Positions 835 through 55,809 of a DNA stretch of 64,000 nt are shown piece after piece (within the stretch, counting starts at the first letter, position 1; every line of letters begins with the position of its first letter). The notes beneath the pieces were generated by a model, which did not search any database, was not told where the DNA came from, and saw nothing but the letters and a program-made list of their open reading frames with translations. The stretch is from Tubiluchus corallicola (Eukaryota > Animalia > Priapulida). The translations under genes were made by a program, and so were the position numbers. Location: the NCBI GenBank assembly GCA_030141605.1, contig JAQGDQ010000335.1, positions 124,001-188,000 on the forward strand, in the 5' to 3' direction.

Positions 835-10840
<10,006 letters not shown>

Positions 10841-41600: not shown

Positions 41601-42555
41601 ATGTCTAGTCATAGTTGATTGAAGTTTGAAGTTTTCTGGATAATCACTGTTATTAACGTTCACCCTCACAAACTTGAAACAAATAACTGACAGAAATTTG
41701 CAAATGATTTCGGTCAAATGAACTACTGTTAAACTAATGTGTAGACACTTAACTTGAAGCTAAAATAAGTTTTCAAAATTGAAAATTAAATCATCACATT
41801 TCCTCTTTTAACAATTAAGCAATGAAAACAACGCACTGCACTTGCTATGCCTCAACTATCAACAGCTCACCAGATCAAAACTGACCAAGTTTTTAATGAT
41901 TCTGTTTTAATGCACTGAAAAAGCAGGTTAAATATTGTGCTAACATAAGTAAATGTATTACAAAATTCTGTAGAAATGTCAAAAAGGCGTTATTATCCTG
42001 AGTTAAGAACAACAAGGTTTGCAGTATCTAGAGTTAAAGAACAGAGTACCAAAATAAATGCAATCAAAAATTAATTTAGTTTACAAGAAGTTATTTTTAT
42101 CTGAAAGTGTTTTAGATCTTTCACCCTTGCCAAAAGATTATGAAGCTCATGTGGATGTAACTTCTGAACCTCTCCTAGCTGTTGTGCAGCAGCTTTACGT
42201 GCCAGAGGTGTGCTACCAGTATCCAGTAACAAAAACAGCCTGTCTAATCTGAAAATATGCAAAGCAATATTATTATGTTGCTGACAGATGACCTAGGTAG
42301 TATTTGACTAACAAAATCTATCTACTTCATGTTTTATAAATTTTAACAAAATGTAGCCTATTCATTTTATTTAAATTCATACTTGAAAAAAATCATGATG
42401 TATTAGTTTTGAAGAAAAACGCTTTCTGCAAATTTCTTGTATTTAAAAAATCTGTCATTTGAAACTGTATTTGATAGCAATTATAGCAATACCACCACGA
42501 AAGCTTTTCAAATACTTTCGAAACCATCAGCAGATTTTCCTTACCTCGTAGTCAT
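14614..42555 (-). CDS. BTAF1: TATA-binding protein-associated factor 172 (BTAF1/Mot1, SNF2-family ATPase), about 36 coding exons
   Basis: Start MTTR (42555-42545) splices to [39 protein letters not shown] (42248-42125). HEAT-repeat exons follow ([38 protein letters not shown]|[10 protein letters not shown]), then SNF2 motifs [14 protein letters not shown] (21332-21195), ILDEGH (20362-20298), [42 protein letters not shown]...[15 protein letters not shown] (16507-16300) and [10 protein letters not shown] (15594-15503). Last exon 14881-14614 ends [22 protein letters not shown]. Confidence 0.97.
19430..19710 (-). mobile_element. Degenerate LINE (CR1/L2 clade) ORF2 C-terminal fragment
   Basis: Translation [37 protein letters not shown] resembles the post-RT 'L(I/V)xPxLxY...W...LxKLxxLQxRxxR' region of CR1/L2 LINEs; intronic in BTAF1. 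Confidence 0.55.
20984..21059. repeat. (CTACTG)/(CTA)n simple repeat
   Basis: ctactactgctactgctacaactactgttactgctactgctactgct... visible directly. Confidence 0.9.
23610..24463 (-). other. U12-type (minor spliceosome) GT-AG intron of BTAF1
   Basis: 5' site GTATCTTTT (consensus GTATCCTTT); branch site CCTTAAC at 23626-23620, 10 nt before the end of the intron; no polypyrimidine tract; splicing preserves the frame EAVA|[15 protein letters not shown]. Confidence 0.8.
26094..26310. repeat. 47-bp minisatellite, ~4.5 copies
   Basis: Unit aaaaaatgtagaaaataatctccttactcagagatgatcaaactctt repeated head-to-tail (tactcagaga at 26121, 26168 and onward) with few substitutions. Confidence 0.93.
28481..29373. 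mobile_element. Old pogo/Tigger-like non-autonomous element
   Basis: Degenerate TIRs cagtaggtgccgcttaatagactca and tgagtgtaataaacgatacccacta, subterminal caattarcc/caattaggc repeats, TA at both ends. Confidence 0.6.
37125..38519. repeat. Long inverted repeat: ~300-bp arms (37125-37422 and 38221-38519) with ~800-bp spacer
   Basis: For example ttttctggtgagccagtgacatttttgat in the left arm is the exact reverse complement of atcaaaaatgtcactggctcaccagaaaa in the right arm; similarity is roughly 90% by eye over the arms. Confidence 0.93.
37600..38552. mobile_element. pogo/Tigger-like MITE
   Basis: ta|cagtatactccactcaataaatc ... gatttattaagcgaattctactg|ta: degenerate CAGT-starting TIRs with TA flanks. 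It contains the right arm of the long inverted repeat. Confidence 0.6.
40915..41307. mobile_element. hAT-like MITE
   Basis: TIRs tagggttgagcat and atgctcacccta; 8-bp flanks gctgggag and gctaggag (7/8 identical); internal ttcga/ttcaa-type short repeats. Confidence 0.7.
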
Positions 42556-42972
42556 TATTGAAACAAATTAATTATAGCAAACAAACAGCTAAATAACTGT
42601 CTAAGCATCCAACGTGGTCATCAGCATTGCAAAATTCAATTGTTCCTTTGTCACATCCTAGTGCAGATGTGTCATCTGAAAAACAAAATCCATATTCAAA
42701 CTGAGCAAAACCAACTATGGATGAAAATTAATTCCTATGCTACAACTGGTACAGGGATTAATAAATATGGTACTCCAAGACACCAGGGATTACCAATCCT
42801 TAGTAGTAAGGAACCTATATAAAGTGTCGTAAATGCACTTGCTCAAAAGTCACATTATATCAAAACTGACTATATCGAAGAAGCATATCTCATACATAGA
42901 AAAGAAGGTCAAGTAGAAAGGAAATTACTAGGTTATCACTACAGGTTTTCCGAGTAGTCTAAATGGTCTCTA

Positions 42973-43040
42973 TATTGTACTTCATCATTTAGAGACCTTA
43001 CAGTCTTTATATTGTACTTCATCATTTAGAGACCTTACAG
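42973..43040. repeat. Local tandem duplication of 31 bp
   Basis: tattgtacttcatcatttagagaccttacag occurs twice, 37 bp apart. Confidence 0.85.
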
Positions 43041-43370
43041 CATGTTCCAGACATCTAACTACTAACAGTCTTTATGTTCTGACCTCCCGAATTGGGCCAG
43101 GGTTGCACGTTGCAAAATGAGCTCTGTTGAGCATAGAGAAATTCTTGAACTTGACAAATGTAACTGCATAGGAGTGTGCGCAAATAAGGAAAAAAACTAG
43201 ACATTATACTCTACTATTGCCAATATAGCAAATGTGAACACAACTAGACTGGTGGATGTGGAGGAGGAGAAGACGTATGAAGACAGAGACACCTGGAGAG
43301 ACGTTATCAAGTGTTCGCCGGCTGACAGATGAAAATCTACCAGGAGGATGGTGAGAAAGTATTAATTGTA

Positions 43371-44343
43371 GGGTGCTGAGTAACCCACTAGCCGAAGTAG
43401 CACACTTCCGGTAAAACGTATGTGCTAAATTTGTGGAAAAGCAGTGCCGTACATGGGCAGCCCAAGTAGGGCACTGGCGATTTTTGACGAGAATCGAGAA
43501 TTATGATGGCACAATAAAACATAAAACTAAATTTGTTTTAGAGAAAAAGTAACTTGATAATAATGATGTATAGTCCTTGACAATCTACAAAATTAATGTA
43601 TTTTTTACAATAGTATCATTAGTATTATTAGCTCCATTAAAATCATCATAACATTAAACTAAGTGTCTCATGCTTTAAAGAGAGAAACTATGCACACAAT
43701 TATAGATTACATTTTCGAGAAACTATGCATTACAGAAATAATTACAAGTTTAAAAATGAGACAGATGCTCCTAAGCCTTCACAACACAAAAAAGTAATTT
43801 TTAACAGTTAGGAAAAGCAAAGACAATTAGTTTTAATAATATCAGTAGTATTGCAACATGTAGGGCACTGTCGTACATGGCTCGCTAGCCCATGTCGGAC
43901 ACATAGATCGCTAGAACGTTTACTTAGGAGAAAACTATTATTTGTCCAACAAGTAGTGAAATGGATCCTTTGGAGGGAAGTGAAGCGAGACAAAATAAAA
44001 AATGATATACCGTAAACAAATGTTGAAATCGCCTAAAAAGTGGGTTTATTTCACTTCAACAACATTAATATCGAAGCCAAATTTAATATTGTCCGTTCTA
44101 CCAGCTCATAATAAAACTTTTATTTTATCAGATGTATAATAAATTATACCAACGTGTATTGATGTATTTAATTACTATTACTACGTAAACAAGGACAACG
44201 GACGGTGCCCGTACGCTTAACGACTCAATTCCTGACCTGTCTCTAATGTCCTACTTGGGCAGGCCATGTACGACACGTCCTACTTGGGCTAGCCCATGTA
44301 CGCCAATTGTCCTACTACGGCTAGTGGGCTAATCTGCAGCATC
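43371..44343. mobile_element. Unclassified TIR element (MITE) with subterminal repeats
   Basis: Left gggtgctgagtaacccactagccgaagtag and right ctactacggctagtgggctaatctgcagcatc are imperfect inverted copies. The motif cgtacatgggc(t)agcccaagtagg recurs at ~43448 and ~43871, and inverted at ~44250-44305. Confidence 0.6.
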
Positions 44344-44499
44344 ACCGGTAATTTTTAATATACTAATCTATCTATAAGAAAGGGCGGGAGACTAGATGAC
44401 CCCATGGTCCTTCCCTGCCCTGCTCTATGATTATAATTACTTAATATTTAACAAACTTTTGATGTAAAACTAATTGGAGAAAATGAATGTTCTATGTCT

Positions 44500-44795
44500 A
44501 TACGTAATTTCTGATTGAAGTAATCGCTTATCGAACGTTCACCATTTACTAGTTGTTTCATCAGATAACGCCGCCAGTTTGTACACAAACTACAGATGAA
44601 AATTTATTTTAACGCATTACATTTTTATTCTAAGTACGTAAACATTTAAACACTCGGCAATTTTTTTGCCATCCGTGCTTGCCTGCTGGCACCCTGTAGA
44701 TGGTCACACACTTTTTTGTCGCGTGCAATTTATAAAAAGATTAATTTGTGGTGACCATCTACGTAATTTCTAAATCAACATGTCAGTTTTCACAC
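44500..44795. promoter_or_regulatory. Putative (possibly bidirectional) housekeeping promoter for NOL12/GALNS and BTAF1
   Basis: Locally CpG-retaining; inverted 12-mer pair gtagatggtcac (44696-44707) and gtgaccatctac (44751-44762) around tataaaaa (44731); Inr-like tcagtt at 44783, just before the NOL12 ATG. Confidence 0.5.
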
Positions 44796-47700
44796 ATGGA
44801 GTTGTCAACAAAAATACAAAAGTCTCAAAAGAAAGGCAAACTAGTAATAGAGTTTAATGCAGAAGCCAGAAGGCAAGTTGCAGTAACAATTTATTAACTA
44901 ATTTTAATGGAGCGGCGGACCAGGTGACTTTTGTTTATTCGGGGAGGTGTATGTAATTCTATTCTGTTTCCAAAATGGCTGCGTTCACATCGTCTTATTT
45001 GCAATTAAGTTGTGTGTTATTGTGTACTAACTTGATGATACTTTTTGCATCTTGTGCGTTATATTCAGAAACACTTTTTGCTCCGGATTATCTCGAATTA
45101 TCTAATCAGCCAGATAATGTAATACTAATGCTTATGGATGATATGGGGTGGGGAGATATTGGTGTTTTTGGAAACCCAGCAAAAGAAACTCCTAATCTAG
45201 ATAGAATGGCCAGTGAAGGCATAACACTAACAGACTTTTATACTGCTAACCCCTTGTGCTCACCATCAAGAGCAGCACTACTTACTGGAAGACTTCCAGT
45301 TAGAAATGGCTTCTATACAACAAATATCCATGCTAGAAATTCTTACACACCACAAAATATAGTGGGTGGAATCCAGGATTATGAACTTCTTTTACCACAG
45401 TTGCTCAGGACGGTTGGTTACCAAAGCAAAATTGTAGGAAAATGGCATTTGGGTCACCGTCCACAGTTTCTACCATTAAACCATGGATTTGATGAATTTT
45501 TTGGATCCCCAAATTGTCATTTTGGCCCGTTTGATGATAAGAAAACACCCAACATTCCAGTCTATAGAAATTCAAAAATGATTGGGAGATATTACGAAGA
45601 ATTTGAGATATCAAATTCTGGCAAATCAAATCTTACGCAGTTGTTTATCCATGAAGCCGTAGAGTTTATACATGAGCAATATAAAACCGGCAGACAATTT
45701 TTTCTATATTGGGCTCCTGATGCCACCCATGCTCCAGTTTATGCCTCGAAGCAATTTCTTGGGAAGAGTCAGCGTGGACGGTATGGTGATGCTGTCATGG
45801 AACTGGATTATGGTGTTGGTATTATACTCAATACTTTAAAGAAGCTTGGTATTGATAAGAACACATTTGTATTTTTCACTTCTGATAATGGTGCTGCTTT
45901 GGTCAGCAAGATTTTTGGTGGTAACAATGGACCGTTTCTGTGTGGCAAACAAACTACCTTTGAAGGGGGAATGCGCGAGCCTGCAATTGCATGGTGGCCT
46001 CACAGAATCAGGCAACCAGGCAGCATAGCACGACAGGCTAGCACAGTGATGGATTTGTTCAGTACTGCATTGGATATTGCTGGAGTTGAAAAGCCTAGTG
46101 ATAGAATAATTGACGGGCAAAGTTTAGTACCTTTACTTGTCTCTGGCATAACTGAAGACAGGCCTGTCTTTTACTACAGAGGCAATGAAATGATGGCTGT
46201 GAGACATGGATTATATAAGGCACATTATTGGACATGGTCAAATGGTGAAGATGAAATAAAAAAGGGCATAGATTTTTGCCCTGGTGAGGAAATAGCTAAC
46301 ATGACTCAGCATGTTCTGCAAAATCACACAGCACAGCCATTGCTCTTTCACTTAGGTCGAGATCCTGGTGAAAAGTACAGAATTGGATTCAAAACAGTAG
46401 AATATGACAAAGCCGTGAAAGTTATTCATGAAATAGTTGACAATCATAAGAGCAAATTAGAACCTGGTGTGCCTCAGCTTAATGACTGTGATATTGCTGT
46501 TGAGAATTGGGCACCACCTGGATGTGATAAACTTAAAAAGTGTTTGCCTATACCAAAGTCTCACAAGGTCAAGTGCATTTGGCCTCATTAATTAGGAGGA
46601 CAGTTAAAGGTATAGTGACTAGTGTTGTGCCAAATCCTCTGAAGTTCAGATCCATCCAAATAACTTTGTTTGGATCAGATCAAGGTTATAAAGTTTTGTT
46701 GATGTTTGGAAGTTAAACAGCATTCTATACAGTACTGTTAATATTAATACCTACTGCTGTTACTGACTGAAGGGTCTAATACAAAATTGTGATATAACTT
46801 GCATTGTCAAATATAAAGGAAATGTTTAAAGAAGTTTCTAGGCACCGAACAACTTTTTAATTTAGTCTTTAGTATATTGAGCAGTGTCTATATAAAAACA
46901 GCATAATGAATACCATATTATGTAATGCATTAAGAGCAGTTTATGTACAATAACAGTATATATGTTTACTCTGCTTAAGAGATGTACAGGGTGTTTCAAA
47001 AGAAACAGTGCAATTGGAATTACCTGATATGTTTACATATGCTGATCAAAACACAATAAAATGCAGTTGAGTGTTAAGTCACTTAGTAAGAGATTAAAGA
47101 GATTATATTATAACTGTTGCTTGAAATGTCGCTGTTAACTGACCTAAATGAGAATTTAATTGACACTGCATGTTATAGAAAACACACTCAAGTTCACCAG
47201 GTTGGATGCTTCGACTGACATTGATTATTTTATGCTTTAGCTCTTCAATGGGTCTAGGACTTCCTCCTGTCTTCACTGAAAATTTCAACTTTCCCAACAA
47301 ATAAAAGTCTGGCAGTGATAAACCAGGTGATTGAGGTGGCCACAAACCATGGGAAATCACATGATCTCCAAAAAGACATTTAGAATTGCTTCCATGCTTG
47401 CACAAACTATATTGTGCAGTTGCACAATCTTGCTGAAACTAGACAGTTTGTTTTTGTGCTGTGTTAGTTGATGTCAGTTTCCTAAGAAAAATGCCTAAGT
47501 AACTTCCGTGAACTTTTCTGAAAATTGTTTGTAATATTCTGTAGCATTCTTTCCATAATAATGCTTGGCCTGCCACTTAGGTTTGCTTTGAGCACTACCA
47601 GTTTGATGTGGTAATCGTTTTCTGTACCAGACTTTTCTTTGAGGAGCTTTTGCACTCCTTTTGCAATTTTGCCACCTCTACATTTTCAAAAAGAACTATC

Positions 47701-50700
47701 CATTCATCCAAAGTAAGAACCATGGCTAACACAATTAATGCATAAATGCTAAGTAAGCAATTTCAGGAAAAATGTTCCAAAATAAACTTAAAGGCTTCTA
47801 AATTTTGGCATAACTTGCTTGTAAAGTCTAAGAGACATAACCATAACACAGTTTTTGATTGTGTTAAACTCCTCAACGATTTTTGAAATTTGAGCCAGAT
47901 TTGATACTACAACAATTTCACTTTTAAATGAATTCCAAGGGCCCACAACATAGGAAGAGAAGAACTGGGCTCTGATATTATTGCGAGAGTATTGTACAAA
48001 AAATTTAGAGTTGTGTCCAAGTAAATCACATAGTAGCCTAGGAAAAAATTCATCACTACATAAAATTGAATTGCCACTGATGACTTTATAGCAGTTAATA
48101 AGATCTATAGTATCATGGCGTTTTTCAAAAGAAGATACAGAGTCTGGTTGAATATCAGTGGCCAGACTAATACATCTCCATTGAGTTTTTTCTAAACCAT
48201 TCTTTAGACTCTTTAGAGTAACATACCCAGGTGACCAAACAATGCATGCATATTCAAGTATTGGTTTATTACAGCTTTGTACAGAGGTACAATAGCTTTT
48301 GCTCTACCTTTTATCATTCCTATGCATCTATTACCTTGAGAAATAATATGCTCAATATGAAAGTTCCACTTCAGGTTATTTGAGATTAATATTCTGAAAT
48401 ACCGTACATCTGATTTTTCTTCAGTAACACATCTCTCAGATAATAAAGCATTGTAGAATGAGAAAATACGAAGTGCACTGCATTTACTGTGTTTGAGGGA
48501 CATTAACAAGTTGTCACATCACACCATTGCTCAAATTGAGACATGTCAGCTCGTAATATTGATTAGTCAGAGGTATTTCTAATTGGACGATAAAGTTTAA
48601 TATCATCACCAAATAGTGGCATATACATGTCAGGAGCTATACAATCAGTAACGTCATTAATAAAAATGAGGAAACAATAATCCAATTTTCCTACCATATA
48701 ACTTGGTTTTTCTACATACCATTAGAACAATATCACTGATATCAGCATCTTTCCACTATTTCTTCTGAAACACTCATATATTTTTGTATGTTTCATAATA
48801 AAACCAACGTTAAGAACAACTAAGTGCCAATAAAGCACATGATTTGATTAGATATTTTTATTTTTCAAATTTGATTAATTTTTTTATATAGTATTTTGGT
48901 TAATATAGTTAAAATGATAAACTGAGTTGCATCTATTGTAAATATTCATTTTGAATGTACTGATATTGGTATAAGTAACCATAACGTAAAAACAATTAAC
49001 ACACCGAATTGTCCTTGGATTGGTGTATAGGTGACTTCATTTAATAATATGAAATTGTTATTATCATTGATGCCTGGTGAATTTAATACTGCAATACAGT
49101 ATTATCATTTACCGCCGAGTTGTATTATCCTTGTTAAATGATAATGAAATGTACTGTATCTCTTTTGTGTAAAATGAAACTTACTCTGAAATATATCTCA
49201 GTAATATTTAACATGTAGTTTTTCACCTCAGTCTAGGTGCTTCAACTTACAGAGTTTCAGCTACAGTCAAAGATGAAAAATTCGGATTCTGAAATGACAT
49301 CACTACAGTCATGCCCAGTACGTTACACCTGCAGTCTCTGACAGTACGGGCGAATTTTTGAAGAATTTAATTATTTCTTTTAAATTTTTCAGACATCGCG
49401 GGATGAGACAAAACACATTTACAAACTAAAGTACACGTTAGTGCTTCTTAGCTACTTGGCTCGAAATTGCATGGCAGCTATCAGGGCTGACTATAAAAAA
49501 TCTACAATCAGCTTGTGATTGCAGAACACGCTCTAGTGTACAACAGGTTCTAGTTTATGATCATCGTGACATCAGTAGATGACATCAGTTCCACTGCCAC
49601 AATCACAAAAAGCTTTCTGTGACTGTAGCGAAACTCTCTATTAGCACTGCATTAAGAGTTATGATAGTGCAGGCGCTGCCACCTTTAGCTAACGATTTTC
49701 ATTACAAATTTTGATTTCCAGATTACTCAATTTTCATGTGTTCTTTTTTGCAGTCAAACATTGAAATAAAGCTGTACTTTCAGTAGTCATCTGAGATGCA
49801 TCATGTTTAACTTACATAATTTCTCTTATAATAATTTCAAGTGCTTATTTGTTGCTTCTTGTACAGAGTGTAGCCCCGTTTTCTGCGGGGTTGCAAAAAC
49901 AATGAGTAATAGTACAAAACAGTTTATTGCATCAAAATATTGTTCAGTCAATTGAGAATCTATCACGGCCTCAATATTTAGCATAGACGCCTTGTGCATT
50001 TCACACAGGTGGCATGAAATTTGAGGGTTATGACTGGAACAGATCAAACTGAATGGTTCAGAAATTCACCTGACCTCAACCCCACTGAACACATTGGAGT
50101 TATTCTGAAAGGCAGAATGGAAGCTAAAATTATAATAGGCATGTCATTGATCAGTATTGAATGCATAAGCTTATGAGACATCTGTGAGATGTGTTGGATA
50201 ATCTTGAGTTCGACCCTGATTCCTTTGAGTCTGCAATTAGGCTCCCTAGCACTGTAGGCTGGGCAAAACACTCGGCTTCCATACTAAATATTGAGGGCAT
50301 AATAGATTCTCAGTTGGTTGAGCAATATTTGGTGCAATGAATTGTTCTGTACTGTATACGTTGTTTTTCTACCTCTAGCAAAAGCTTATCTTAGACCCTC
50401 TATAATTTTTGCTGCTTATTTGAAATGTACCTACATATATTTTATGTTTACTTATTTTTATAAAATATCAGTATACATGCTTTTTTGGGTTATCTGTCTT
50501 TGTTTAAGAAATTGAATGTAGCAAAAAATTACTATCTAACAGTTTGTCCTACTTATGTGAGACTTGCTTTGGAAAATCATGTCACTGGCAAAATGGGTAA
50601 ACAGATCTATGCTTATATAAAAAACTGCATCAATAATGCTAAAAACTGTTTTAGGATCTTCTTTCAACTGAAACCGTTTATTAAAACATGCATTTACTTC

Positions 50701-53700
50701 ATATATATATAAATAACTGAATTTTGCCAATGTACTTGAGTAAAAGTATGTAAAATTAACTTAATTTCGATTAAGAATAAAATGGTTCTAGTAAAAATGA
50801 CACTAAATGCACAAGCCAACTTGAAACAGTACTAAAAAACAGATCATAAACAATGTCTTTAGGGTGAAATTTAGTTGGACAGTTTTAGATTTTCGCTGCT
50901 AATCTCTTACCCTATTACCCAACAAGATGCAACCAGGTGAGCAAGTTATAATTAGCTTACCTCTTCTAAGACAGATGAAGAACAAAGGACAACATTCACT
51001 AATAACTAATAAGAGGCAATACATTATTAAACACGATGCACAAATACATGTATCCACACTAACATACATATGTACCTTACATAAAACAATGCAATTCTTA
51101 CAAAATCATATTAATCAAAAGCACTTTATGTAGTGAATTTTAAGTGGTGGAATATAGTTCTTGTGCAGACCTTATTTTTATGTCACATTACAATGTGTAA
51201 AGTACAATCGAGAATGTTTTGGATATTATTTAAGATCATTTATCATGCAAGAACTCTTAAAACTGTTGTACGCCCTATATTCTTGTGTTTTGGTACTGCC
51301 AAGGCTATACTTATACTGTACATATAATTTATAGATGCAGAAATACACCTTACATATACATTACGGATTTGTCTTAATTAGTATTCATGTCATGAAATTA
51401 ATCTTTTGCAAGTCCTCATTATGTCAAAACTGACTCATTTTTGTTCCTTTTAGGGAGTACCTTCTAGGATTCAGTAAGAGGAAGGCTGAAAGAAGAAAAG
51501 CCGCACAAGAAGAGGCACAAGAGCGATTTAAAGCAGACAAGAAACGAGCTAAAAGAGAGGTAAAATTATATATTTGTATGTATATATATATATATTTCAG
51601 TAGCATGATTTTGTTGCGATACATGCCAGTAGTGTGCTTATTCTTGTTTTTAGGATAATAATAGCATTTTCTATTATTAGGGTTAAAATTTAGATCTTAG
51701 CTATTACTTAAATTCTGTTTTATATTTGGTTAGCTTCCTCAGGTGTGTATAGCCAGTTGACATGGCTGCGAATAAAAATTGAACATACTTTATATCATGA
51801 TGCGATTTCGAAGGTAAACCCACTGTATGATTGTGCGTACAGTCTGAACTGGAATTTGAAATTACAAACCTGGACTGCAAAATTAAAATTATTTGGAAAA
51901 ACTTTATGATAAGTTCAGAAATTAAGACATTACTTAACTGAATTTATCAATCTCATTTAAGATCATCCACTGGCATTTTTTCTTATAGCAGTTCAAGTTC
52001 AACAGTCGTATTTAGTGAGAACCTTTGAATTACAGTTCACATCCATTAACTGCCTTTACATTGCCAGACCGTAAAAAGTGGACTTCAATGTTTTATCAAA
52101 ATTGGTAAAACCCCTTTCACTTTTTTCTTAGTTTTTCACAGTTTTAACAGTGATCACTAACACAATTCATTTAGGCAGTTCTGAGCTTTTCTGGCTTGTA
52201 AATAATGTAAAATTGCTTTTGTTTTGCATGTTTAGGTCAGAGATGCATTTAAGAAGCAAACTTTAACCAGCTCTGTACAAACTAAGCAGCCAAAGCCCCC
52301 TGAACCTGAACCAGTCACGATTGCACATCCTGAACATGTGGTTACTATAACAACCATTGAGGATCTGGATGTTACTAGTGGAGGTTTATTAATTGGACCA
52401 AATAAGGTATAACAAACTAATTTTATTAACTGAACTCCTTAGATGGGGTAATTTTTTTCATGCACATCAGCACATTGCAAGCTAGATTGACAGAGTCCAA
52501 CACTCAAAGATGAGCCTACTCTCACCCACTATCATATGCCTACTGTGACCCACAATAGCTATACAAATCACTCGCCCACGAATCCCTCAACAGTTTAGTC
52601 TCTTTTATAATTTGATATCATTTATTGTCTATAGGCTGCTGGCAATCTGCAGGTTAAATTTGTTTTTGTTACTTGCGAAAGCAAAAGAAGATGTAGAGCT
52701 GTTTTCTGTTTTGAGTTCTTGTGTAACTGTAACAAATCACTTCAGTTGTGCATTTTTGAGAGTAGCAGTTAGTTAAGCACTGAAAAATTTATTTCGTGGA
52801 TTTCTTTTAATGCTGAAGCCTATTGGATCATGTTACACTGTATCCTGTTTCAATATATACAGGAAGTATTTCTAAAATTCTAGCCTTACACTATAGATGC
52901 TTCTGTTCACATTAAAGCTTCCTAGTGCTAGATAAATACATCAGTTATATTAATGTGTATGCTTTATAGCACTGCTTTTTCAGAAATTACTTTCTGAAGA
53001 ATTAATTTTAGTTTTTGTCTGAGATTAGCTGTAGTATTTAATGTAAACTTTGTAAATTCGATGTGAATTGATTCTTTGTAATTCACTAGCTGATTCATGA
53101 CAGAAATTCACTGCTGTGCTTTCAGTGGTTCTGTGTGTTCCTTACTAAGCAGCTTTGCTGGTTATGCATTAAGTTTCTTCTCTATATACTTTATAGAATA
53201 TATTTAGAAAATAAGCCTGTTATATGTTTCACGACTTACGGCAATTTTGTTTTTTAATTTACAGAACTTAGTCAATGACACTGATGTAAATGCCAGTAAG
53301 AAGAATGGCTCGTCAAACAGTGTGTCACATAAAGAGGAAAGGTTTGATTTTTTTCTTTATTATAGGGAACTTTCTACTCTAATGTGCTATAATAATTAAA
53401 CTGCTTTTGGGAAATTTTATCAATAAGAGCTAAGATATGGTAAATGTGAATTTTTTATTAATCTTAAAATGTTAGTTGTAACGGAAGTTGTGTTTTTCAG
53501 TTTCACTCATGCTTTTCAAGATATCTAATAACTCTGCCTTGTGTAAAAGTGTGTCGGGTATTTTTATTTAGTAAAATATTTGGTTCTCTGCAGTCTGAGT
53601 AGTTTTAAATGTATGATATTATAATGGTGTTGGCTGTCTTTAAAGCTTGCTTGTCTGTGGGTCAAGCTTTAGTTCATTCAGGAAATTTTTCTTAAAAATG

Positions 53701-53908
53701 CCTCATCCGAAATAAGTCCCAATAACTATACTTTGCTTTTTTCAGTAACACTGTGTCTTTCAAAACAGCTGCTAACCAAAGGAGAGGAAATAAATCCAGC
53801 AGAAATGTGAAAAAACTGTACAAGGATATGCTCAAGAAAGAATCATTAGGAAAATACTCTAGTAAAAAAAGAAAGAAATTTCATCGTAAACAGAAAAAAC
53901 ACTGTTGA
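44796..53908 (+). CDS. NOL12: Nucleolar protein 12 (NOL12/Rrp17 family), 5 exons, ~197 aa
   Basis: Exons 44796-44872, 51454-51559, 52236-52406, 53265-53341 and 53746-53908 total 594 nt in one frame: [25 protein letters not shown](R)|[26 protein letters not shown]...|...[18 protein letters not shown]...|...[14 protein letters not shown]. It matches the NOL12 signature '[28 protein letters not shown]' and 'HPNHTVTVTTISDLDL'. Intron 1 is GC-AG. Confidence 0.88.
44975..46591 (+). CDS. GALNS: N-acetylgalactosamine-6-sulfatase, intronless, 538 aa
   Basis: Uninterrupted ORF with a hydrophobic signal peptide, LMDDMGWGD, formylglycine motif [46 protein letters not shown], and the GALNS-type C-terminus [14 protein letters not shown]...CIWPH. 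Confidence 0.96.
46987..47730 (-). mobile_element. Degenerate Tc1/mariner-superfamily (DDxD type) transposon fragment
   Basis: ta|cagggtgtttcaaaa TIR at 46987; ORF 47103..47405 has [20 protein letters not shown] (WPPRSPDLxPxDFFLWG-like) and [11 protein letters not shown]. The other TIR was not found. Confidence 0.75.
48050..48680 (-). mobile_element. CR1/L2-clade LINE reverse transcriptase fragment
   Basis: Minus-strand translation [28 protein letters not shown] (YADD-like box), then [28 protein letters not shown] and [10 protein letters not shown] across stops and frameshifts. Confidence 0.8.
49250..49638. mobile_element. MITE, ~390 bp
   Basis: TIRs agagtttcagctacagtca and tgactgtagcgaaactct; interior is CpG-richer than the flanks. 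Confidence 0.65.
49910..50354 (+). mobile_element. Internally deleted Tc1 (DD34E-type) element with ~90-bp TIRs
   Basis: Arms ~49910-50000 and ~50265-50354 are inverted copies (gagaatctatcacggcctcaatatttag and ctaaatattgagggcataatagattctc). The interior encodes [15 protein letters not shown] at ~50051, the Tc1 WPxxSPDLNPIE motif. Confidence 0.8.
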
Positions 53909-55809
53909 TGTATTTTCCTCAAGTATGGCTAGGGCAACTGCAGTTTGTGTTTATGTGAAGACATGTGTATTACTTAGTTTTAACAATATATGGTCCTAAG
54001 TAACGAAAACTTGGTTAGATGAAAGTGTTTCTGGTATGGTCACAGATTTGGTAAAAAAAACTGATGCTCTATCTTTCCCAAAAATGAGTTATTAAAATTT
54101 TACACTCAAAGAGAATTTTAAAGCTTTTTCACTTTGCAATTAGTGCAATTTTCCATTCACTTTTGATTTATATTCATTTGTAGTGTTTTTATCTTACATC
54201 AAGTGTGTTTTATTTTGATTTTGTCATGTAGCATATGCTGCTTTTCCCTTGAATGTTAGGGAAAAAGCCATGTTTTTCCAGCACAATTTTGGTTTGAATT
54301 TATTACATGTATAGGTAATATACATAATTATAAAAGGTTCCATGATTGTTGTTTCAATCTTGTCCATTCACTGATTGCCAAAGTTTTATGGTTTTCGTCT
54401 GAACGCAACTTGGAGTGTTGGTAACTGAATTTTCCGAATTTTATTGATGCATTCAGCTGTTCGGCAGACTGCTCGGCTATTTGACGGCCTGCTTTGTGCA
54501 CATGTCAGTCAAAGAACAGTTCCTGTTAGATTCGCTCAACTCTTATCCAGTACTGCTGAACGCAAGCAACTAGACTGCAGTACTGATGTTGTTTATTGCT
54601 ATCGTTATCCGTCCTGTAAAAAGTTATTCTTTGTGTTTTATGGAAAAACATTTTATGAGAAAAAATTATTGAACAAACAACTGTACCACTTCTGCGAGTA
54701 TGTTCTATCCAGGGCTTTATGGTGATTGACCAAGCATGTAGCAATCTCTAAAACACTGTGGAAAAAACTAGTGATTACACTATTGAACCACTATCACAGC
54801 CAACTAAGCCAAGCTGTAATTTTATTGAATATAGCTTTAAAATTAACATAAATATGAAGACTCGTTAAACAAATGTGACGTCTTGCTATATAATATTTCT
54901 CTAATTTACTTTAATGTGAGTGAACTTGTTTTTGACTGATGAATTTTATGATAGTCTGTTCACATCATTATTGGCTTTTCATTTGCAGAAAGGTTAGAGA
55001 CCGGACAGGGAAATTCTGAGAAACTGCTAATTTGCTGCTAGTTATTGTGATTCAAGCTGAGCTAGGCAGTTATAATGACTAGAGCTGACAAACTGCTATT
55101 GATATTTTTTCTGAAAATGTCAATATCCTGTGCAAACAAGGTGCTTAATATGCTTATTTGCATCATATACATCTTATTAAAAAATATGTATGGAAAAGGT
55201 TTTGAATAATAAGCAGAGAAATGTGCCCAAGCTTTACATGGCTGCCAGTGGAAATATATCACAGTACCAGCCAAAAGTAATTGGTTAAAACTATGATTAG
55301 GAAAAATTGGAGAGAAATAAAACTTTCAAGATTTTCTCTTTTCAGAATCTTGAAAAACTGTATAAATTTAAAAAATAGTTAAATTTATTCAAATCAGCAT
55401 ATGGTAACAAATTGTGAAGTAGATGATTAAAATGATACAAGTAGATTAATTCCTAACACAAAAGTCATCATCCCAAATGTGAATAAAAACGTAAATATGA
55501 GGTAACACATTTTAACAGTGAGTCAGTGGCCATATCTTAAGACAAACATAAGATAAATAAGGTAATATAAGATATCAGAAAAGAAGGTAAACAAGCACAT
55601 AGTATTTCCAGTTGTTACAGCTAATTAGAAACACTTGTTTTTAATAGTCTTGTTCAATGTAACTTTTAATGACATTACAGCTTTATCTTCTGATCAAAGG
55701 TTCACTCCAGTGTCAATCTCAACTCCATGTGGAACATAGAGGCACATTAACCATAATTAGGCCTAGGTGTTAACATAACTCGGTACCGTCCGAAAAATTT
55801 TAAGAAACG

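What the first reader, a model, noticed from the sequence alone, without database searches (positions are those of the whole stretch)
44796..51559. Intronless GALNS nested on the same strand in NOL12 intron 1, right behind a GC 5' splice site: possible splice-versus-readthrough switch
Seen: NOL12 exon 1 (44796-44872) joins exon 2 (51454) in frame through AG|GCAAGT, the canonical GC-AG donor, and the conserved 'EAR(R)|EYLLGF' motif spans that junction. The complete GALNS ORF starts 102 nt downstream on the same strand within this 6.6-kb intron. Known: most nested genes are antisense to their host, and GC donors are weaker and enriched at alternative splicing events. Inference: one primary transcript may give either NOL12 (GC donor used, GALNS spliced out) or GALNS (donor skipped, intronic polyadenylation), coupling a ribosome-biogenesis factor to a lysosomal sulfatase. 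I do not know of this arrangement being described, but cannot search.
Basis: partly seen in the sequence, partly recalled or inferred. Interest (0 to 1): 0.8.

Follow-up and report, generated by a model that had tools for sequence, protein, structure and literature searches.

The report
Sulfatase gene inside NOL12's first intron
An intact, intron-free gene for the lysosomal enzyme GALNS sits on the same strand 102 bases inside the predicted first intron of the ribosome-assembly gene NOL12 and likely borrows that gene's promoter, a known kind of arrangement in a new gene pair, with no sign so far that it works as a regulated switch.

Summary
A 538-codon GALNS reading frame (44975-46591) has 11 of 11 active-site residues and is 61-69% identical to animal GALNS. 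It lies on the same strand inside a predicted 6.6-kb GC-AG intron of a five-exon NOL12 gene. The GC donor is the best-scoring of 4,735 GC sites in the window, and no alternative first coding exon was found downstream of GALNS.

The switch is untested: no RNA run, no genome and no relative's locus could be obtained. Sequence alone slightly favours GALNS mRNA made from unspliced NOL12-promoter transcripts ended inside the intron (0.45) over a separate start just before the GALNS ATG (0.35) or a spliced shared exon (0.12). The GC donor is not unusually weak for this genome, upstream ATGs are not depleted, and splice acceptors in front of GALNS are poor.

Same-strand single-exon genes in a first intron are known (VAChT in ChAT, Su(var)3-9 in eIF2-gamma, 29% of fly nested genes are same-strand). 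My searches did not find this gene pair in print. An extra lead: a symmetric promoter-like stretch at 44690-44790 with a second strong GC donor on the opposite strand, which may serve BTAF1.

The parts
44796..44872 (+). NOL12 predicted exon 1, coding part (25 codons + 2 nt); would be part of a 33-codon upstream frame (stop ends 44897) in an unspliced RNA
   Evidence: position fits Pfam Nop25 start; no direct homology hit
44873..51453 (+). NOL12 predicted intron 1, GC-AG, 6,581 nt
   Evidence: donor ranks 1 of 4,735 GC sites; acceptor has 15 of 17 pyrimidines
44975..46591 (+). GALNS, single open frame, 538 aa, hydrophobic leader, intact active site
44907..44929 (+). Competing GT donor CAG|GTGACT at 44924 with an ATG at 44907, in phase with NOL12 exon 2
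   Evidence: U1 pairing -8.1 against -5.9 for the GC donor
44908..44980 (+). G+C-rich patch (56%) and CAAAATGGC start context in front of GALNS; candidate own start region
   Evidence: 0 of 112 intron tiles reach this G+C; motif found twice on the + strand of the window
44982..45009 (+). Weak in-frame acceptor candidate (AG ending 45009) that would fuse NOL12 exon 1 to the GALNS hydrophobic leader
   Evidence: open 552-aa frame, but score -1.8, below 19 of 19 reference acceptors and matched by 85 of 355 background AGs
44687..44790 (.). Promoter-like stretch: 12-bp perfect inverted repeat (44697-44708 and 44752-44763) around a TATA-like word at 44731, Inr-like TCAGTT at 44783, CpG retained
   Evidence: motif identities are recalled, function untested
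44677..44685 (-). Second strong GC donor CAG|GCAAGC (first intron base 44682), candidate donor of a non-coding first exon of BTAF1
   Evidence: rank 4 of 4,735 GC sites; best minus-strand donor in 44500-44980; not shown in RNA
46687..47098 (+). Candidate GALNS polyadenylation signals: variant hexamers 46687-46905, first AATAAA 47055, ATTAAA 47093
   Evidence: 47024-47095 is a repeated stretch
51454..51559 (+). NOL12 exon 2 (Nop25 core)
52236..52406 (+). NOL12 predicted exon 3
   Evidence: open frame and GT-AG ends; no database hit
53265..53341 (+). NOL12 predicted exon 4
   Evidence: open frame and GT-AG ends; no Pfam hit
53746..53908 (+). NOL12 predicted last coding exon, basic tail and stop
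42545..42555 (-). BTAF1 predicted first coding segment; the gene runs away from NOL12 on the minus strand to about 14600
43374..44501 (.). High-copy repeat with inverted sub-terminal arms, between BTAF1 coding exons and the promoter-like stretch

Best explanation
An intact, intron-free GALNS gene lies on the same strand 102 bases inside the predicted first intron of NOL12; it is likely an old RNA-derived copy, and its mRNA is likely made mainly from transcripts that start at the NOL12 promoter and would be cut and polyadenylated inside the intron instead of being spliced. Shown by sequence: the nesting, the intact frame, the donor and acceptor words, the start-codon contexts. Inferred: (1) one promoter at about 44690-44790 starts both RNAs; (2) splicing 44872 to 51454 removes GALNS and gives NOL12; (3) cleavage at 46.7-47.1 kb before splicing gives an intron-free RNA in which NOL12 exon 1 is a 33-codon upstream frame; (4) ribosomes reach the GALNS ATG by leaky scanning or re-initiation. 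The split between the two products is most likely a fixed housekeeping ratio, not a regulated switch.
For: The only distinctive promoter-like signature is upstream of NOL12 exon 1: GATGGTCAC occurs twice in the window, both here and inverted; a perfect inverted repeat of 12 bp or more occurs in 2 of 213 other 300-bp tiles. CpG observed/expected is 1.11 over 44500-45000 against 0.35 in GALNS and 0.34 in the rest of the intron. ATGs at 44796, 44857, 44907 and 44951 all have a pyrimidine at -3; 44975 has A at -3 and G at +4. No good acceptor precedes GALNS: 4 of 4 AGs between donor and ATG score below all 19 reference acceptors. Nine AATAAA words lie in the intron after the GALNS stop, which NOL12 transcripts must pass. 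Human GALNS has 14 exons (PMC4238747, passage); the window protein is 61-69% identical to animal GALNS and at most 43% to the 80 metagenome sulfatases kept, so intron loss, not bacterial transfer. Precedent: unc-17 and cha-1 share a 5' exon (PMC3875643, passage).
Against: Upstream ATGs are not depleted: 5 in 44761-44974 against 4.57 in shuffles, 2 in 44873-44974 against 2.33. An ATG at 44780 has A at -3 and would be in the leader if transcription starts before it. The unspliced leader would carry a GT donor at 44924 that pairs with U1 better than the GC donor (-8.1 against -5.9). A G+C-rich patch and a strong start context right before GALNS fit a separate start. The GC donor is not weak outside +2. 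CpG retention is not specific: 54-64 kb has 0.89 and the upstream repeat is also high. The first AATAAA lies in a repeated stretch.
Confidence: 0.45

Rival explanations
1. GALNS has its own transcription start inside the intron (about 44900-44965), probably using the same open promoter region; read-through from the NOL12 start is only a by-product.
For: G+C-rich patch 44908-44950 at 56%, reached by 0 of 112 intron tiles. CAAAATGGC at the ATG resembles the YY1/TISU word of short-leader genes (recalled) and occurs twice on the + strand. A start after 44953 avoids every upstream ATG. Mcts2 in H13 intron 4 has its own promoter (PMC7470969, passages); several promoters are reported for the mammalian cholinergic locus (PMC3053374, passages).
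Against: The Inr-like word at 44959 is of a kind found 807 times on the + strand, and no TATA-like word lies upstream of it in 44873-44990. The distinctive motif pair lies upstream of NOL12 exon 1. The G+C patch may instead be a decayed 50-nt duplicate of the end of exon 1 (28 of 44 identical, 10 of 2,000 shuffles, noticed by eye).
Confidence: 0.35
2. GALNS shares NOL12 exon 1 by alternative 3' splicing: 44872 joined to 45010 would fuse NOL12 residues 1-25 in frame to the GALNS hydrophobic leader (552 aa), or 44872 joined to 44947 would leave a short upstream frame before the GALNS ATG.
For: The AG ending 45009 is in frame and has a 61-nt AG-free zone, reached by 8 of 355 background AGs. One reference acceptor in this window also ends TAAG. 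This is the design of Su(var)3-9/eIF2-gamma (PMC1435931, abstract and Background).
Against: Both acceptors score -1.8, below 19 of 19 reference acceptors (leave-one-out -1.2 to 8.5), and 85 of 355 background AGs score as well as 45009. The best acceptor nearby (45068, score 2.5) is out of frame. The GALNS ATG has an optimal context, which a fused form would not need.
Confidence: 0.12
3. The adjacency is an assembly error, or GALNS is silent or receives a trans-spliced leader.
For: No laid contig covers 44480-45557. The host group is not fixed, so trans-splicing cannot be excluded.
Against: Exon 1 is the only fitting first exon, with a unique perfect GC donor. A contig runs from GALNS codons across the stop into the intron with 0 differences (46473-46761; the run may be the source sample). 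GALNS keeps 11 of 11 active-site residues despite a long branch, which implies selection on the protein. No good acceptor for trans-splicing precedes the ATG.
Confidence: 0.08

Closest known systems
Cholinergic gene locus: VAChT in the first intron of ChAT (PMC3053374 passages; PMC3875643 passage)
   Same: Same-strand gene in the host's first intron; single-exon reading frame in mammals; in C. elegans a shared 5' exon and two products from one pre-mRNA.
   Different: There the shared exon is untranslated and is spliced to the nested gene, and both products act in one pathway. Here the host's first exon is coding, no good acceptor precedes the nested gene, the donor is GC, and the two proteins are unrelated.
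Su(var)3-9 / eIF2-gamma fused locus of insects (PMC1435931, abstract and Background)
   Same: An unrelated gene sits in an intron of a housekeeping gene and is expressed from a common promoter.
   Different: That locus uses alternative 3' splicing and shares 80 residues. Here the only useful in-frame acceptor is weak and GALNS has its own start codon and leader.
Mcts2 / H13 (PMC7470969, passages)
   Same: Single-exon retrogene in a host intron, tied to intronic polyadenylation of the host.
   Different: Mcts2 has its own imprinted CpG-island promoter in intron 4 and host transcripts end upstream of it. Here the copy is 102 nt from the first donor and the candidate end signals are downstream.
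Same-strand nested genes of Drosophila (PMC3814207, passages)
   Same: About 29% of nested genes are same-strand and 72.5% of those are single-exon, so strand and lack of introns are expected together.
   Different: Fly cases are enriched for testis-biased genes; GALNS here looks like a conserved housekeeping enzyme, and it is unusually close to the host's first donor.
Human GALNS (PDB 4FDI; PMC4238747 passages)
   Same: Full-length match, E 1.5e-225 against 1e-73 for arylsulfatase A; all 11 listed active-site residues present.
   Different: Human GALNS has 14 exons over about 50 kb. The leader here is 53 residues before the MDD motif, longer than in 108 of 108 homologues measured (median 35).

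Membership tests
GALNS (N-acetylgalactosamine-6-sulfatase) | Best match to GALNS over other sulfatases | tested here: met
   4FDI E 1.5e-225, arylsulfatase A 9.5e-74; named hits among the best 120 of 718 are GALNS or unnamed
GALNS (N-acetylgalactosamine-6-sulfatase) | Active-site residues D39 D40 C79 R83 Y108 K140 H142 H236 D288 N289 K310 | tested here: met
   11 of 11 present (list, mapped)
GALNS (N-acetylgalactosamine-6-sulfatase) | Signal peptide and lysosomal activity | tested here: inconclusive
   Hydrophobic stretch peaks at 2.4 around residues 13-23 and three N-glycan sequons; no signal-peptide predictor or assay available
NOL12 / Rrp17 / Nop25 | Pfam PF09805 core | tested here: met
   Exon 2, E 3.5e-7, 31.3 bits against cut-off 22.5; Atlas 30 of 30 named hits Nop25, recognition value below its threshold
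NOL12 / Rrp17 / Nop25 | Conserved segment upstream of the core (yeast residues 28-37) encoded by exon 1 | tested here: inconclusive
   Length and position fit, but exon 1 alone gave no match and no animal NOL12 sequence was retrieved
NOL12 / Rrp17 / Nop25 | Residues tested for function in yeast (D32, D38, T41, F43, R46) | tested here: inconclusive
   Window has N21, E27, L30, F32, R35 by ungapped extension of the alignment: two kept, one conservative, two changed
Same-strand intron-nested single-exon gene | Whole reading frame inside a host intron, same strand, no introns | tested here: met
   the host intron is predicted
Cholinergic-locus type (shared first exon or promoter) | Nested and host mRNAs share a transcription start or 5' exon | not testable with these tools
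   No RNA holder listed; needs CAGE or long reads
Cholinergic-locus type (shared first exon or promoter) | Splice acceptor in front of the nested gene | tested here: not met
   AGs at 44883, 44912, 44923, 44946 and 45009 all score below 19 of 19 reference acceptors
Cholinergic-locus type (shared first exon or promoter) | Arrangement conserved across species | tested here: inconclusive
   No genome held; metagenome scan gave only distant sulfatases; no look-alike in earlier scan windows
Retrogene | Loss of introns present in orthologues | tested here: met
   One open frame against 14 exons in human; intron content of closer invertebrate orthologues not seen
Retrogene | Parent copy elsewhere, poly(A) scar or target-site duplication | tested here: inconclusive
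   No second copy in the window; no joints or diverged contigs listed on GALNS in partial cover; rest of the genome not available

The most novel reading that the evidence does not exclude
One symmetric 100-bp promoter drives three housekeeping genes. Both first introns begin with GC (BTAF1 leftwards at 44682, NOL12 rightwards at 44873). On the NOL12 side the GC donor, a stronger-pairing GT decoy 51 nt downstream and an intronic poly(A) site set a tunable three-way split between full NOL12, an unproductive or truncated NOL12, and a GALNS mRNA in which the host's own first coding exon acts as the upstream reading frame, with no acceptor needed.
Probability: 0.15. Interest if true: 0.65.

Novelty: new member of a known kind. 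Interest (0 to 1): 0.35.

Why it matters
If GALNS is made from unspliced NOL12-promoter transcripts, the locus is a compact natural test of how 5' splice-site recognition and intronic polyadenylation divide one transcript between two unrelated proteins, and of how a relocated gene can take over a host promoter without an acceptor site. A single GC-to-GT change would test it. If GALNS has its own start, it is an ordinary nested gene, useful mainly as an annotation warning: gene finders that ignore GC donors will miss or truncate NOL12 here.

Tried and rejected
RNA evidence: no RNA holder listed. Run X1 behaves as genomic DNA (intron contigs with 0-2 differences, no splice joints) and has no cover at 44480-45557. 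Run X2 laid only 2 repeat pieces and none. None of this bears on expression.

Synteny: no genome is held. The metagenome scan returned 80 loci at 34-43% identity, not animal GALNS, from a partial scan. The GALNS protein is not in the exact-match collection. Earlier scan notes hold no look-alike.

NOL12 homologues: 0 of 22 candidates, 0 of 45, 0 in the representative library. Exon 1 alone gave only a ParB_C match below cut-off, no PDB hit and Atlas hits under 0.9. An alignment of exon 1 and exon 2 pieces was out of register and not used.

Rejected: a first exon downstream of GALNS; bacterial origin of the intron-free gene; GALNS carried between transposon ends, because the two TIR-like words at 44690 and 46985 face outwards; the 44907 mini-exon as the main first exon, because it cannot supply the equivalent of yeast residues 28-31; recursive splicing at 44923/44924, acceptor has 6 of 17 pyrimidines; structured RNA families, 0 Rfam hits in 43000-54500. 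The bacterial promoter scan does not apply to an animal. The paper read for the Motif 1 consensus did not state it, so that label stays recalled. The careful tree did not finish; only the quick tree was seen.
Full report
1. Observation. An ATG at 44796 opens 25 codons and two bases, followed by AAG|GCAAGT. An acceptor ends at 51453, and the join is in frame. Adding exons 52236-52406, 53265-53341 and 53746-53908 gives a 197-residue open frame with GT-AG ends. Exon 2 matches Pfam Nop25 at profile positions 21-55 and yeast Rrp17 weakly (E 0.14). Its intronic extension has no ATG before a stop (ORF 51434-51658; translation), so an upstream coding exon is needed. Of all sites in 42600-51400 that passed a consensus filter, 5 had an in-frame ATG in the right phase. 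Three lie in or beside a high-copy repeat, one is the proposed exon, one is a 5-codon exon at 44907, and none is downstream of GALNS. The perfect GC consensus occurs once on both strands of the 64 kb. Under a matrix from 25 donors (22 BTAF1, 3 NOL12, all GT) it ranks 1 of 4,735 GC sites. Those donors were picked by eye from sites already matching at least 6 of 9 consensus positions, and three BTAF1 exons whose ends I could not fix were left out, so the set leans towards consensus. Exon 1 alone gave no homology hit, and I retrieved no animal NOL12 sequence. Its identity therefore rests on position, phase, length and exclusion. The yeast conserved domain starts at residue 28 (PMC2806520, passages), which maps to residue 17 in exon 1.

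2. The nested gene. 44975-46591 is one open frame of 538 residues. It matches human GALNS over its length (E 1.5e-225, arylsulfatase A 9.5e-74). 718 of 7,996 scored candidates pass E 1e-100, and the best 120 are 61-69% identical. All 11 active-site residues listed in PMC4238747 (passage) are present. Human GALNS has 14 exons (same passage). The 80 metagenome sulfatases kept reach only 34-43%, so this is an animal orthologue that lost its introns, most simply by retroposition (inference). No second copy lies in the window, and the rest of the genome is not available. A quick tree with 44 of the 120 homologues puts it on a long branch (0.75) beside chelicerate rows with support 86, below the starred level. 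Earlier unchecked notes on this genome suggest a non-arthropod invertebrate. The host group is unresolved.

3. Surroundings. BTAF1 runs on the minus strand from a first coding segment at 42555 to about 14600. A high-copy repeat fills about 43374-44501. CpG observed/expected is 1.11 over 44500-45000, 0.35 in GALNS, 0.34 in the rest of the intron and 0.48 in BTAF1, but also 0.89 in 54-64 kb. At 44697-44763 a perfect 12-bp inverted repeat flanks a TATA-like word; its core occurs nowhere else in the window, and 2 of 213 tiles hold a repeat this long. One arm contains GGTCACAC, which I recall as the fly housekeeping Motif 1; the paper I checked did not give the consensus. The best minus-strand donor in this stretch is also a GC site, at 44682, rank 4 of 4,735, and an acceptor-like run ends at 42676 before the BTAF1 ATG. 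A shared divergent promoter is a lead, not a result.

4. Mechanism. Whatever start GALNS uses, its RNA must end inside NOL12 intron 1, and NOL12 transcripts must cross that end. Variant poly(A) hexamers lie at 46687-46905, the first AATAAA after the stop at 47055, and eight more follow. 47024-47095 is a repeated stretch. A NOL12-promoter transcript cut there would hold the whole GALNS frame behind upstream frames of 33, 9, 6 and 1 codons. Those four ATGs have a pyrimidine at -3 and the GALNS ATG has A at -3 and G at +4, which fits leaky scanning. Against this, ATGs are not depleted in the leader (5 against 4.57), an ATG at 44780 has a good -3 base, and a GT donor at 44924 pairs with a recalled U1 end better than the GC donor does (-8.1 against -5.9). 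Use of that site from an upstream start would include a stop at 44895-44897. The GC donor itself is ordinary in strength: 16 of 25 reference donors pair as well or better, and only 1 of 25 has flanks as good. A G+C-rich patch (56%, 0 of 112 intron tiles) and CAAAATGGC at the ATG fit a separate short-leader start. Prompted by earlier scan notes on shared first exons, I tested acceptors. An AG ending 45009 would fuse exon 1 in frame to the GALNS hydrophobic stretch, but it scores below 19 of 19 reference acceptors and no better than 85 of 355 background AGs. I put the odds at 0.45 shared start with intronic cleavage, 0.35 own start, 0.12 spliced shared exon, 0.08 other. A regulated switch is a sub-case at about 0.15.

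5. RNA and comparative evidence could not be had. No RNA holder was listed. Run X1 is genomic by its intron contigs and may be the source sample; it spans the GALNS stop into the intron without differences but does not cover the exon 1/GALNS join. These blanks say nothing about expression.

6. Known relatives. VAChT is a single-exon frame in the first intron of ChAT, conserved in nematode, fly and mammals, with multiple promoters and alternative splicing (PMC3053374, passages). In C. elegans the two genes share a 5' untranslated exon, and switch-like processing has been proposed (PMC3875643, passage). Su(var)3-9 and eIF2-gamma come from one promoter by alternative 3' splicing (PMC1435931, abstract and Background). 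Mcts2 is a retrogene in H13 intron 4 linked to intronic polyadenylation (PMC7470969, passages). In Drosophila 71% of nested genes are opposite-strand, and 72.5% of same-strand ones are single-exon (PMC3814207, passages); about one third are same-strand in human (PMC4394429, passages). GC-AG introns are 1.2% of first introns in human coding genes, and a link to U1-dependent polyadenylation control has been suggested (PMC7242645, passages). Eight unchecked scan notes describe same-strand nested genes in early introns of other invertebrate housekeeping genes. A search for NOL12 with GALNS found 1 paper, seen as a listing only, a human blood RNA-seq study with one mention of each. Searches listed nothing on this pair. 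The library lacks most subscription papers. I opened no supplements and figures are not held, so the published NOL12 alignments (PMC2806520 Fig. 5, PMC5716212 Fig. S8, PMC10623804 Fig. 1; passages only) were not seen.

7. Verdict. The nesting is real and well supported. It is a new gene pair in a known kind of locus. What would set it apart, a host coding exon used unspliced as an upstream frame behind a GC donor in a three-gene promoter, is possible but unshown. Interest 0.35.

Noticed in passing
window 44677-44763: 12-bp perfect inverted repeat around a TATA-like word, with a strong GC donor on the minus strand at 44682; may be a divergent promoter and non-coding first exon for BTAF1, giving GC donors on both sides.
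   Followed up: partly
window 44836-44930: 44886-44930 resembles 44836-44879 at a 50-51 nt offset (28 of 44 identical, 10 of 2,000 shuffles, noticed by eye): possibly a decayed duplicate of the exon 1 end that left the in-phase GT donor at 44924.
   Followed up: partly
window 44856-44872 and 51454-51470: The predicted NOL12 has Asn and Leu where yeast Rrp17 has D32 and T41, residues tested for activity; T41 was reported conserved in all homologues examined but Drosophila.
   Followed up: partly
window 44975-45133: GALNS leader is 53 residues before the MDD motif, longer than in 108 of 108 homologues measured (median 35, maximum 52); a second Met at 45035 would give 33.
   Followed up: partly
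window 14614-42555 (minus strand): Multi-exon BTAF1/Mot1 gene (DUF3535, SNF2, Helicase_C hits); 22 donors judged, all GT; at least one acceptor ends in AAG (26814).
   Followed up: partly
window 43374-44501: High-copy repeat with inverted sub-terminal arms (contig depth 859-3,180 against about 10 elsewhere); a related inverted stretch lies at about 48141 in NOL12 intron 1.
   Followed up: partly
window 46985-47095: Repeat starting TACAGGGTG (resembles a Tc1/mariner end, recalled) contains the first AATAAA after the GALNS stop, so the poly(A) signal may be transposon-derived.
   Followed up: partly
window 49895-50368: Inverted arms of 97 bp at 79% identity, likely a miniature transposon in NOL12 intron 1.
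   Followed up: no
window 7833-8908 (minus strand): Open frames that read like a decayed hAT-type transposase (recalled resemblance; no Pfam hit at E 0.01).
   Followed up: no
window 42966-43039: Tandem duplication of 37 nt at 97% identity.
   Followed up: no
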